Shown: positions 34,241 through 35,260 of the stretch, in pieces
How positions within the stretch are numbered: position 1 is the stretch's first letter
How the letters are laid out: the number at the start of each line of letters is the position of its first letter
Assembly (NCBI GenBank): GCA_009914755.4
Contig: CP086569.2
Span: forward strand, 2,432,001 to 2,496,000
From: the human T2T-CHM13v2.0 reference genome, Homo sapiens
Direction of reading: 5' to 3'
Length of the DNA stretch: 64,000 nucleotides
Notes under the pieces: model-generated
The model's input: the letters and a program-made list of their open reading frames with translations, nothing else
Told to the model about the DNA's origin: nothing
Databases searched by the model: none
Program-made: the position numbers and the translations under genes

Positions 34241-34654
34241 TGTTGGCAGTTTTAGAACTGTAATTAGAGAAACAGATTCCAGAAGCATCTGACATTGTGT
34301 CGTGACCGGCTGTTTTGAGAGACAGTTTTTAAAGGAAATAAGAGAAAGTTGGTACTCATTAGGTTACTTACAACCTATTATCTTAATTGGTAATGAAGGG
34401 TTATCTTAACAGTTCATGAGTTTCTACGCAAAAGTCCTTGAATCAGTGGTTTGGGTAAAAAGTCAGTTTTCACTATGAAGTCTTTTAATAAGTGGCAGCA
34501 ATTTTTGTCTGCAGAATCTGCAAGTACATTTTGCAGTCAGGCAGTTGCAAGATGGGTTTCAAAAACAAAATGTTGTTGCTATGGTTAGGTCTTGTTGCCT
34601 TCGTTCCCCGGTACTACTGAATCGTCCAGTTTAAGAGGGATAAAGTGGCGTCGC

Positions 34655-35260
34655 ACAGGAGCGAGGATGGAGAGCGGCGACTAGGCGGCTATGGAGAGGT
34701 ACAGCGTCCAGTTGCGCCCAGCCACACTGCAGGACGCCGCCCCCGCCACACTACACCTGATACCCTGCGGCCCACCACGGTGTGGCGCTTCATCACGCCT
34801 GCCATCCGCCAGGGCCCCGAGGGACTCTTAAGTGTAGTTTCGGGGCCGCAGTCTACGGGGCGACGAGGTGGCAGTGCCGTCCGGCCTCGTGGGATACGTG
34901 ATGGTGACTGAACAGGAGGAGGTGTCGATGGGGAAGCCAGACCCCTGGCGGGGTTCCGGGAGTGACAACCAAGAAGAGGAACCTCTGGAGCGGGACTTTG
35001 ACCGCTTCCTCGGAACCACTACCAGCTTCAGCCGCTTCACCCTGTAGGGCATGGGGCTTCACCCTGTGGGGCACCCTGTGGGGCTTCCTTGGCCCGGAAG
35101 CCAAACTGCGTGGGGCCTTAACTTGGCCCAGCCTCGCGGCAACGATTCACGCGCAGGTGCCCAAGGACACAGAACCAGAGCTTGAAATTCAAAGCCGCGA
35201 ACCCTTTACAGCAGTAAACCAGCTCCTTACTTTGTAGCCACTGGTTCCATCACCCCAGTA
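34655..35260 (+). pseudogene. RNASEH2CP1: Processed pseudogene of RNASEH2C (RNase H2 subunit C), intronless with a premature stop and frameshifts
   Basis: ATG at 34667 reads MESGD then TAG (stop at codon 6). It continues [28 protein letters not shown], which matches RNASEH2C [34 protein letters not shown]. Shifted frames give [13 protein letters not shown] (ORF 34645..34911) and [30 protein letters not shown] (ORF 34962..35237), matching the RNASEH2C mid and C-terminal regions. The match is continuous over about 560 bp with no introns. The segment is CpG-rich (about 45 CpG in 560 bp). Confidence 0.8.

What the first reader, a model, noticed from the sequence alone, without database searches (positions are those of the whole stretch)
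34640..35260. CpG-island-like RNASEH2C processed pseudogene head-to-head with SRY, ~2.1 kb upstream of its TSS
An intronless copy of RNASEH2C is recognisable from [37 protein letters not shown] and, in shifted frames, [13 protein letters not shown] and [27 protein letters not shown]. It lies on the opposite strand to SRY. It is dead as a coding gene (stop at codon 6, frameshifts), yet it retains about 45 CpG dinucleotides in about 560 bp. Retroposed sequences that are methylated in the germline normally lose CpGs quickly. Retention implies either a recent insertion or, more interestingly, that this block is kept unmethylated in the male germline, and therefore behaves as a CpG island adjacent to the SRY promoter. 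It could contribute promoter or enhancer activity, or antisense or divergent transcription, at a locus whose precise temporal regulation is still poorly understood in humans.
Basis: partly seen in the sequence, partly recalled or inferred. Interest (0 to 1): 0.5.

Follow-up and report, generated by a model that had tools for sequence, protein, structure and literature searches.

The report
RNASEH2C retrocopy CpG island near SRY
This is the already annotated dead copy of the RNASEH2C gene (RNASEH2CP1) that was pasted 2.1 kb upstream of the human sex-determining gene SRY more than about 30 million years ago; it has kept its CpG richness, most likely because it escapes DNA methylation in the male germ line, but nothing found here shows that it helps control SRY.

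Summary
Window 34649-35279 (+) is an intronless, 5'-truncated copy of RNASEH2C mRNA. It ends at the parental poly(A) site and has a degenerate A-rich tail. It is flanked by a 10-bp target-site duplication, GATAAAGTGG. It lies head-to-head with SRY, about 2.1 kb from the SRY TSS. It meets the sequence criteria for a CpG island (GC 62%, 42-45 CpG, obs/exp 0.70-0.74).

It is the known pseudogene RNASEH2CP1, which a 2024 paper on SRY regulation described as Catarrhini-only. I confirmed this: it is present in seven other apes and Old World monkeys, and two New World monkeys have a clean empty site. A nonsense codon shared by the species that keep that segment shows it died before the catarrhine radiation.

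The "kept unmethylated" alternative gains indirect support. Across eight species, CpG transitions in the copy are only about 1.7x as frequent as non-CpG G:C transitions. The ratio is 6.7x in the flanks and 9-14x in two same-age Alus nearby (p about 1e-9). Non-CpG sites and indels evolve neutrally.

There is no support for a role in SRY regulation. Published fetal-testis DNase-seq shows open chromatin only at SRY and the E250 enhancer. The element is known and of a known kind, so interest is low to moderate.

The parts
34639..34648 (.). 5' copy of the target-site duplication GATAAAGTGG
   Evidence: The sequence is identical at 35292-35301. It is a single copy in Cebus and Callithrix at the orthologous empty site (GGGATAAAGTGG|TGAATTTTAT).
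34649..35279 (+). Body of the RNASEH2C retrocopy (RNASEH2CP1). It comprises 18 nt of 5'UTR, the CDS-derived part 34667-35171 and the 3'UTR. The former exon junctions are at 34822|34823, 34999|35000 and 35144|35145.
   Evidence: Aligns to chimp gene exons L002 ~2980-3172 (the copy starts within exon 1), 3342-3517, 3595-3714 and 3950-~4076, with all three introns missing. Aligns end to end with a spliced macaque mRNA contig (L011 85-701, 80.7% identity). PDB match to human RNASEH2C, E = 3.8e-73. Human copy versus chimp parental CDS: 86.6% identity.
35257..35262 (+). Former poly(A) signal. It is AGTAAA in human, chimp and gorilla, and AATAAA in the parent gene, orang-utan, siamang and Old World monkeys.
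   Evidence: Alignment. The parental sequence is CCCCAATAAAGGAGCTCTTCACAGCAC. The copy stops matching the parent 17 nt downstream.
35280..35291 (+). Degenerate remnant of the poly(A) tail (ACATTCACAAAA in human; ACAC(T)CACACACAAAA in other species)
   Evidence: It lies between the end of parental homology and the 3' target-site duplication.
35292..35301 (.). 3' copy of the target-site duplication GATAAAGTGG
34600..35250 (.). CpG-island-like block: 45 CpG, GC 61%, obs/exp 0.73
   Evidence: From 34551 to 35300, all but three of the overlapping 200-bp windows (step 50) have GC >= 0.5 and obs/exp >= 0.6. The block coincides with the retrocopy.
35047..35068 (+). Human-specific 22-bp tandem duplication inside the copy
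   Evidence: Absent from chimp, gorilla, orang-utan, siamang, the Old World monkeys and the parent.
31829..32443 (-). SRY coding sequence (context). The TSS is at about 32522.
   Evidence: The TSS was placed from GRCh38 chrY:2,787,682 in PMC10981742 using an offset of +2,755,160. The offset was checked with the NR5A1 site TCCAAGGCTA, found at 37633-37642 where it predicts.
37504..37765 (.). E250, the published NR5A1-responsive SRY enhancer (context and positive control for constraint)
   Evidence: Coordinates from PMC10981742. The bin 37450-37700 has a non-CpG substitution rate of 0.0039, against about 0.010 in neighbouring bins.

Best explanation
The block is RNASEH2CP1, an L1-mediated retrocopy of spliced RNASEH2C mRNA.

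Origin. It inserted into the Y-specific DNA upstream of SRY on the stem lineage of Old World monkeys and apes. That is after the split from New World monkeys and before the ape/Old World monkey split, roughly 30-43 million years ago. It lost coding capacity before the catarrhine radiation.

Why it looks like a CpG island. The parental transcript comes from a gene that lies inside a CpG island, so the copy arrived as about 630 bp of unique DNA with about 55 CpGs.

Why it still looks like one (inferred). The block has been largely spared from cytosine methylation in the germ line ever since. CpG-dense unique DNA is known to resist de novo methylation in male germ cells. A Y-linked sequence passes only through male germ lines. 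Its CpGs therefore mutate at about the ordinary rate rather than the roughly 7- to 14-fold higher rate of methylated CpGs seen in neighbouring DNA.

Consequence (inferred). This is a passive, sequence-intrinsic property. The rest of the copy drifts neutrally, and no evidence shows that it acts on SRY.

Shown versus inferred. Shown: identity, processed origin, insertion site, age bracket, early death, slow CpG decay, neutral non-CpG evolution. Inferred: the hypomethylation itself and its intrinsic cause.
For: Identity and processed origin. All three introns are absent, the 5' end lies within the parental 5'UTR, and the 3' end is 17 nt after the parental AATAAA.

Insertion hallmarks and age. There is a 10-bp target-site duplication and an A-rich tail remnant. 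The copy is present in chimp, gorilla, orang-utan, siamang, rhesus, baboon and Rhinopithecus. Cebus and Callithrix have the empty site with a single GATAAAGTGG. This agrees with PMC10981742.

Early death: the TAA at parental codon 60 is shared by seven of the eight species; in orang-utan the segment is deleted.

Slow CpG decay (Fitch parsimony on eight species):
- Copy: 18 CpG transitions in 1238 site-branches (0.0145), against 0.0083 for non-CpG G:C transitions. Ratio 1.7.
- Pooled flanks: 56 in 894 (0.063), against 0.0094. Ratio 6.7. Fisher p = 2.5e-9.

Matched controls:
- Two catarrhine-shared Alus 6-7 kb away on the same Y segment, with similar GC, give ratios of 13.7 and 8.7.
- The copy gives 1.3 in the same outgroup-free analysis. 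Fisher p = 3.5e-10.

CpG counts: the parental ancestor had 55 CpG and the catarrhine-ancestor copy 52. Extant copies have 39-46. Human keeps 40 of 50 scorable ancestral CpGs.

Neutral drift: the non-CpG rate is 0.0121 in the copy and 0.0105-0.0112 in the adjacent flanks and downstream segment. The conserved E250 enhancer bin gives 0.0039. There are multiple lineage-specific indels.

Against: - No bisulfite, chromatin or expression data could be consulted, so hypomethylation is inferred only from substitution patterns.
- Parsimony counts on eight related species are not independent observations. On the human lineage alone the difference is modest: 6 of 50 ancestral CpGs became TpG/CpA in the copy, against 8 of 31 in the flanks.
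- The left flank, between SRY and the copy, has an intermediate ratio of 3.1, so the contrast is not sharp on that side.
- Alus have about the same CpG density as the copy yet decay fast. CpG density alone therefore does not explain the protection; length, uniqueness or bound factors must also matter.
- CpG transversions in the copy are unexpectedly frequent (19, mostly C:G>A:T) and are not explained.
Confidence: 0.72

Rival explanations
1. The retrocopy-born CpG island is a functional, catarrhine-specific regulatory element of the SRY locus. It could be a divergent or antisense promoter, an enhancer, a CTCF boundary between SRY and E250, or a Polycomb nucleation site. On this view its unmethylated state is maintained because of that function.
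For: - It lies between the SRY promoter and the E250 enhancer, head-to-head with SRY.
- It has behaved as an unmethylated island for about 30 My in every lineage examined.
- Unmethylated orphan CpG islands often initiate transcription, and a retrocopy island serves as a promoter in RB1 (PMC5927659 and PMC3839921).
- There is a 13/15 match to a CTCF core consensus at 34861-34875. The window has 13 such matches against 5.3 expected by chance.
Against: - Non-CpG sites evolve at or slightly above the flank rate, whereas E250 is visibly constrained in the same analysis.
- Lineage-specific indels include a roughly 50-bp deletion in orang-utan, a 16-bp deletion in hominoids and a 22-bp duplication in human.
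- The element is absent from all non-catarrhine mammals, where SRY is regulated normally.
- Fetal-testis DNase-seq shows only two open regions, SRY and E250. The authors report that comparative genomics and patient screening found no other putative enhancer.
- No contig with the exact product of the one ORF tried (91 aa) is on record; this is weak evidence.
Confidence: 0.08
2. The copy is methylated in the germ line like its surroundings. Its CpGs decay slowly for physical reasons, because GC-rich DNA melts less and 5-methylcytosine deaminates more slowly, or the low count is a sampling or parsimony artefact.
For: - A dependence of CpG decay on local GC content is established knowledge (Fryxell and Moon 2005; cited from memory).
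- The human-lineage contrast alone is not significant.
- My first, unfiltered analysis was distorted by lineage-specific Alu columns.
Against: - Two Alus of similar GC (56-58%), originally of comparable CpG density, of the same age and on the same Y segment show ratios of 9-14, against 1.3 for the copy.
- After filtering columns the contrast became stronger, not weaker.
- The parsimony bias in the flanks, where the outgroup CpGs have decayed, works against the result rather than for it.
Confidence: 0.1
3. The CpG richness reflects a recent insertion that has not had time to decay.
For: None beyond the high CpG content itself.
Against: - The orthologous copy with the same target-site duplication is in hominoids and Old World monkeys, and the site is empty in New World monkeys.
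- Identity to the parental CDS is 86.6%.
- A disabling stop is shared by seven of the eight species.
- PMC10981742 reports the pseudogene as Catarrhini-only.
Confidence: 0.01
4. CpGs are periodically restored by ectopic gene conversion from the autosomal RNASEH2C gene or its mRNA.
For: None observed.
Against: - Identity to the parent is 78-89% in every exon block, with no near-identical tract.
- The copies in eight species share derived substitutions and indels that follow the species tree.
Confidence: 0.01

Closest known systems
RNASEH2CP1 (ribonuclease H2 subunit C pseudogene 1) as annotated on human Yp11.2 and described in Houzelstein et al. 2024, Nat Commun (PMC10981742)
   Same: It is the same element. 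The paper places the pseudogene 2122 bp 5' of the SRY TSS, finds it in Catarrhini only and reports it absent from capuchin. My coordinates, orientation and species distribution agree.
   Different: The paper treats it as a landmark only. It does not discuss its CpG content, methylation or substitution pattern. The slow CpG decay shown here is an addition, not a contradiction.
Retrotransposed CpG islands that stay unmethylated in the male germ line (Grandi et al. 2015, Genome Res, PMC4509998)
   Same: Both are intronless, CpG-dense, unique sequences inserted by the L1 machinery. [quoted passage not shown] This is the behaviour inferred here.
   Different: Theirs is an experimental GFP marker followed for a few generations by bisulfite sequencing. 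Here the state is inferred from about 30 My of substitutions, and methylation was not measured. Somatic methylation of this copy is unknown.
PPP1R26P1, the retrocopy-derived CpG island in RB1 intron 2 (PMC3839921, PMC4122923)
   Same: Both are truncated retrocopies of a CpG-rich gene that created a new CpG island next to, or inside, an important gene.
   Different: PPP1R26P1 is differentially methylated, acts as a promoter of an alternative RB1 transcript and imprints RB1. No promoter activity or effect on SRY is known or shown for RNASEH2CP1. Parent-of-origin methylation is meaningless for a Y-linked sequence.
Alu elements in the same Y segment (window 27824-28096 and 28710-28984)
   Same: They are L1-mobilised, GC-rich and originally CpG-dense retroelements. 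They are shared by all eight catarrhines; at least the first is absent from Cebus.
   Different: Their CpGs decay 9-14 times faster than non-CpG G:C sites. They have fallen to 3-14 CpGs each. The pseudogene's ratio is 1.3-1.7 and it retains 39-46 of about 52 CpGs.

Membership tests
L1-mediated processed pseudogene (retrocopy) | All parental introns are absent and the exons are joined exactly at the splice junctions | tested here: met
   The three introns of chimp RNASEH2C (L002 3173-3341, 3518-3594, 3715-3949) are missing. The junctions are at 34822|34823, 34999|35000 and 35144|35145. The copy is colinear with a spliced macaque mRNA contig.
L1-mediated processed pseudogene (retrocopy) | The 3' end is at the parental polyadenylation site and is followed by a poly(A) tail | tested here: met
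   Homology ends 17 nt after the parental AATAAA. An A-rich, CA-rich remnant of 12-18 nt follows in all species; the tail is degenerate, as expected at this age.
L1-mediated processed pseudogene (retrocopy) | Flanking target-site duplication, and an empty site in an outgroup | tested here: met
   GATAAAGTGG is at 34639-34648 and 35292-35301. Cebus and Callithrix carry one copy, with the two flanks contiguous.
L1-mediated processed pseudogene (retrocopy) | No parental promoter or flanking genomic sequence, which rules out a segmental duplication | tested here: met
   The copy starts 18 nt before the ATG, inside the parental 5'UTR; the mRNA extends at least 30 nt further 5'. Both flanks are orthologous to New World monkey Y sequence.
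L1-mediated processed pseudogene (retrocopy) | Disabled reading frame | tested here: met
   Human has stops at parental codons 6, 60, 62 and 132 plus frameshifting indels. The TAA at codon 60 is shared by seven of the eight species.
CpG island by sequence criteria (Gardiner-Garden and Frommer; Takai and Jones) | Length >= 200 bp (or >= 500), GC >= 50% (or >= 55%), CpG obs/exp >= 0.6 (or >= 0.65) | tested here: met
   34620-35220 is 601 bp with GC 62.4% and obs/exp 0.74. 34640-35260 is 621 bp with GC 62.2% and obs/exp 0.70. The thresholds are quoted from memory.
Germline-unmethylated CpG island (functional definition) | CpG sites are not hypermutable relative to non-CpG G:C sites over evolutionary time | tested here: met
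   The ratio is 1.7 with an outgroup and 1.3 without. It is 6.7 in the flanks and 8.7-13.7 in same-age Alus. p = 2.5e-9 and 3.5e-10.
Germline-unmethylated CpG island (functional definition) | Low methylation measured by bisulfite sequencing in germ cells or sperm; H3K4me3 and CFP1 occupancy | not testable with these tools
   No methylome or ChIP data are accessible. Literature searches found no report for this locus.
SRY cis-regulatory element (promoter or enhancer) | Sequence constraint relative to neutral flanks | tested here: not met
   The non-CpG rate is 0.0121 per site-branch, against 0.0105-0.0112 in the adjacent flanks and downstream segment and 0.0039 in the E250 bin. There are several lineage-specific indels.
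SRY cis-regulatory element (promoter or enhancer) | Presence in the lineages where SRY is regulated in the same way | tested here: not met
   Absent from Cebus and Callithrix. Reported as Catarrhini-only.
SRY cis-regulatory element (promoter or enhancer) | Open chromatin or transcription initiation in the relevant cells | not testable with these tools
   Evidence is from the literature only. ENCODE fetal-testis DNase-seq, as described in PMC10981742, shows two open regions, SRY and E250, and not the pseudogene. Germ-cell data were not available.
Retrocopy-derived CpG-island promoter (PPP1R26P1/RB1 type) | Initiates a transcript that affects the host or neighbouring gene | not tested
   No expression data were available. 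The single exact-ORF look-up found nothing on record, which is uninformative.

The most novel reading that the evidence does not exclude
A dead RNASEH2C retrocopy gave Old World primates a new, permanently unmethylated CpG island between the SRY promoter and its NR5A1 enhancer. That island now takes part in SRY control. It might nucleate Polycomb or H3K4me3 chromatin, bind CTCF, or fire a divergent non-coding transcript. If so, part of human SRY regulation would be lineage-specific and would not be modelled by mouse.
Probability: 0.07. Interest if true: 0.7.

Novelty: already known. Interest (0 to 1): 0.22.

Why it matters
The regulation of SRY is still only partly understood, and every unique element in the roughly 7 kb upstream is a candidate.

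This work removes one ambiguity. The GC-rich block is an old, annotated retrocopy, not a recent insertion. Its sequence is not under constraint.

The one new point is evolutionary. Substitution patterns indicate that the block has escaped germline methylation in all catarrhine lineages for about 30 My, whereas same-age Alus beside it have not. That makes it a clean natural example of a retrotransposed CpG island that persists on a chromosome transmitted only through males. It also gives a concrete, cheap prediction for sperm methylomes.

It would matter for sex determination only if a deletion or chromatin experiment showed an effect on SRY. Present evidence argues against that.

Tried and rejected
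1. First parsimony runs. They counted alignment columns that exist in only one species, namely Alu insertions in Rhinopithecus near 34546 and in baboon near 38100-38400. This inflated the CpG denominators in the flanks. I discarded these numbers and repeated the analysis using only columns present in at least 7 of 8 ingroup species plus an outgroup.

2. The segment 26700-29000 could not be extracted automatically for the monkeys because repeats gave scattered hits. I rebuilt it from colinear HSPs.

3. Testing for transcription. An exact-product look-up of the 91-aa ORF at 34962-35237 found nothing on record. This is uninformative, because ORF calling on public contigs need not produce that product. 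I ran no further search on this.

4. Literature searches for methylation or CpG-island descriptions of this locus found only the 2024 paper that names the pseudogene. Nothing was found on its methylation. One review, PMC4034426, is not held.

5. CTCF consensus scan. There is one 13/15 match inside the copy, but 13 such matches in the window against 5.3 expected. This is too weak to build on.

6. Gene conversion from the parent and a recent insertion were both considered and rejected on the alignments.
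Full report
**Where the window is.** The window carries the human SRY coding sequence on the minus strand at 31829-32443. The protein is 100% identical to human SRY. I matched this to the GRCh38 coordinates of the SRY ORF given in Houzelstein et al. 2024 (PMC10981742). That gives an offset of +2,755,160. 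The offset is confirmed by the published NR5A1 site, which appears as TCCAAGGCTA at 37633-37642, exactly where predicted. The published SRY TSS then falls at about 32522. The E250 enhancer falls at about 37504-37765.

**Checking the observation.**
- A frame-stitched conceptual protein matches human RNase H2 subunit C over its whole length, E = 3.8e-73 (PDB 3p56_C).
- The region is a compositional island. GC is 62%, there are 42-45 CpGs depending on the exact bounds, and CpG obs/exp is 0.70-0.74. The window-wide obs/exp is 0.27.
- It is on the strand opposite to SRY, 5' end to 5' end. Its 5' end is 2127 bp from the TSS; the paper says 2122 bp.

**What it is.** I fetched the chimpanzee RNASEH2C gene (L002) and macaque RNASEH2C mRNA contigs (L011-L013).
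- The window sequence aligns to the four exons of the gene, with the three introns precisely absent. It aligns end to end with the spliced mRNA.
- It begins 18 nt upstream of the ATG, inside the parental 5'UTR.
- It stops matching the parent 17 nt after the parental AATAAA. That hexamer is AGTAAA in human at 35257-35262.
- A 12-nt A-rich remnant follows (35280-35291).
- A perfect 10-bp direct repeat, GATAAAGTGG, brackets the whole (34639-34648 and 35292-35301).

These are the defining marks of an L1-mediated processed pseudogene. None of the features of a segmental duplication is present. The element is annotated as RNASEH2CP1 and appears under that name in PMC10981742 as a landmark 2122 bp 5' of the SRY TSS.

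**Age.** I retrieved the SRY loci of chimpanzee, gorilla, orang-utan, siamang, rhesus, baboon, Rhinopithecus, Cebus and Callithrix.
- All seven non-human catarrhines carry the copy at the same site with the same target-site duplication.
- Both New World monkeys have the uninterrupted site GGGATAAAGTGG|TGAATTTTAT, with one copy of the repeat. This reproduces the paper's statement that the pseudogene is restricted to Catarrhini.
- A TAA at parental codon 60 is shared by seven of the eight species; in orang-utan the segment is deleted. The copy was therefore non-coding before apes and Old World monkeys diverged.
- The human copy is 86.6% identical to the chimp parental CDS.
- The inferred catarrhine-ancestor copy differs from the inferred parental ancestor at 37 of 611 sites. 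This suggests insertion early on the catarrhine stem.

**Does it behave as an unmethylated island?** No methylome can be consulted with these tools, so I used the evolutionary signature of methylation. Methylated CpGs undergo C>T/G>A transitions many times faster than other G:C sites.

Method. I aligned the eight catarrhine copies with the two parental cDNAs as outgroup. I aligned about 8 kb of flanking Y-specific sequence with the New World monkeys as outgroup. I reconstructed ancestors by Fitch parsimony on the accepted species tree. I then counted substitutions per "site-branch" by context. My first runs were distorted by columns that exist in only one species (Alu insertions). I repeated the analysis on columns present in at least 7 of 8 species plus an outgroup (then 42).

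| Region (call) | CpG transitions / site-branches | CpG ts rate | Non-CpG G:C ts rate | Ratio |
|---|---|---|---|---|
| Copy, with outgroup (42) | 18 / 1238 | 0.0145 | 0.0083 | 1.7 |
| Four flanking segments pooled (42) | 56 / 894 | 0.063 | 0.0094 | 6.7 |
| Copy, no outgroup (58) | 12 / 1183 | 0.0101 | 0.0077 | 1.3 |
| Alu 27824-28096, no outgroup (58) | 18 / 280 | 0.0643 | 0.0047 | 13.7 |
| Alu 28710-28984, no outgroup (58) | 16 / 215 | 0.0744 | 0.0085 | 8.7 |

- Copy versus pooled flanks: Fisher p = 2.5e-9.
- Copy versus the two Alus: Fisher p = 3.5e-10. These Alus are a stricter control. They are shared by all eight catarrhines, lie 6-7 kb away on the same Y-specific segment, and are GC-rich retroelements with an original CpG density like that of the copy.
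- The parental ancestor had 55 CpGs and the catarrhine-ancestor copy 52. Extant copies have 39-46. The two Alus have fallen to 3-14.
- Even on the unpolarised stem between parent and ancestral copy, only 2 CpG transitions occurred at 108 CpG sites.

This is the pattern expected of DNA that has been largely unmethylated in the germ line since insertion, in every lineage.

**Is it constrained?** No.
- Non-CpG positions in the copy change at 0.0121 per site-branch. That is the same as, or slightly above, the adjacent flanks and downstream segment (0.0105-0.0112).
- In the same analysis the bin containing the E250 enhancer stands out at 0.0039. The method can therefore detect constraint where it exists.
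- The copy has also collected lineage-specific indels: a 16-bp deletion in hominoids, about 50 bp deleted in orang-utan, 4 bp deleted in siamang, a 22-bp tandem duplication in human only (35047-35068), and 1-2 bp changes in monkeys.

**Most likely mechanism.** The copy arrived as about 630 bp of unique, CpG-dense sequence, because the parental gene lies within a CpG island.
- Experimental work in mice shows that a retrotransposed intronless strong CpG island is kept unmethylated in male germ cells but methylated in soma, whatever the insertion site (PMC4509998).
- A Y-linked sequence is transmitted only through male germ lines. Male-germline hypomethylation alone would therefore suffice to preserve its CpGs.
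- I infer that retention is a passive, sequence-intrinsic by-product. I cannot show the methylation state directly.
- The fast decay of neighbouring Alus shows that CpG density and GC content alone are not sufficient. Length, uniqueness or bound factors must contribute, and that part is unresolved.

**A role in SRY regulation?** The evidence available is against it.
- There is no sequence constraint, and the element is absent outside Catarrhini.
- According to PMC10981742, ENCODE DNase-seq of fetal testis shows only two open regions at the locus, SRY itself and E250. Comparative genomics and patient screening found no other putative enhancer.
- This does not exclude activity in germ cells, a structural role such as Polycomb nucleation, or a CTCF site. 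There is a weak 13/15 consensus match at 34861-34875, one of 13 in the window against 5.3 expected.
- I give such readings about 7-8%.

**Comparison with what is known.**
- The element itself is already annotated and published.
- Retrocopy-born CpG islands are a known kind. PPP1R26P1 in RB1 intron 2 acts as a promoter and imprints RB1 (PMC3839921, PMC4122923). [quoted passage not shown]
- In the searchable literature I found no description of RNASEH2CP1 as a CpG island or of its methylation. The slow-decay result is thus a small addition, not a new kind of thing.

**Limits.**
- Parsimony undercounts multiple hits, and site-branches are not independent.
- The human lineage alone gives only a modest contrast: 6 of 50 ancestral CpGs were lost by transition in the copy, against 8 of 31 in the flanks.
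- The left flank is intermediate, with a ratio of 3.1.
- The chimp and macaque parents stand in for the human parent.
- The CpG-island thresholds and the GC-dependence of deamination are cited from memory.
- Whether genome-browser CpG-island tracks already list the block could not be checked.

**Verdict.** The object is already known. Interest is 0.22.

Noticed in passing
window 26321-26626: A CpG-rich Alu (24 CpG, obs/exp 0.88) starts exactly where the offset places the end of PAR1 (GRCh38 chrY:2,781,479 = window 26319). It is presumably the known pseudoautosomal-boundary Alu. It is present in chimp, gorilla, orang-utan and siamang, and absent in rhesus, baboon, Rhinopithecus, Cebus and marmoset. 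Human, chimp and gorilla keep 21-24 CpGs, orang-utan 14 and siamang 10. Its ratio of CpG transitions to non-CpG G:C transitions is intermediate at 4.3.
   Followed up: partly
window 27824-28096 and 28710-28984: Two Alus shared by all eight catarrhines; the first is clearly absent in Cebus. They show ordinary CpG hypermutability (ratios 13.7 and 8.7). I used them as matched methylated controls.
   Followed up: yes
window 37450-37700: The bin holding the published E250/NR5A1 enhancer evolves about 2.5-3 times more slowly than neighbouring bins across catarrhines (0.0039 against about 0.010 non-CpG substitutions per site-branch). The NR5A1 site TCCAAGGCTA is at 37633-37642.
   Followed up: partly
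window 35047-35068: A 22-bp tandem duplication (GGGCATGGGGCTTCACCCTGTG) inside the pseudogene is found only in human. An adjacent 3-bp insertion is shared by human and chimp.
   Followed up: no
window 34649-35284 (eight-species alignment): CpG transversions in the pseudogene are as frequent as CpG transitions (19 against 18). Fifteen of the 19 are C:G>A:T, with G>T (11) outnumbering C>A (4) on the sense strand. The asymmetry is not significant and is unexplained.
   Followed up: no
window 34861-34875: CGACGAGGTGGCAGT matches 13 of 15 positions of a CTCF core consensus (CCASYAGRKGGCRSY). There are 13 such matches in the whole window, against 5.3 expected from shuffles.
   Followed up: no
L008 (Rhinopithecus roxellana Y), orthologous to window ~34546: A lineage-specific Alu is inserted about 100 bp upstream of the pseudogene in Rhinopithecus. 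Baboon has another lineage-specific CpG-rich insertion, probably an Alu, orthologous to about 38100-38400. Both distorted my first rate estimates.
   Followed up: yes
window 18175-18736: A long purine-rich tandem array with units such as AAGGAGAGAAGGAAGG (about 34 copies) lies in the pseudoautosomal part of the window. It produces spurious CpG obs/exp values in the sliding scan.
   Followed up: no
window 32700-34648: The interval between the SRY promoter and the pseudogene has an intermediate ratio of CpG transitions to non-CpG G:C transitions (3.1; 8 events in 252 site-branches). This could be a shore effect of the two flanking CpG-rich blocks or small-number noise.
   Followed up: no
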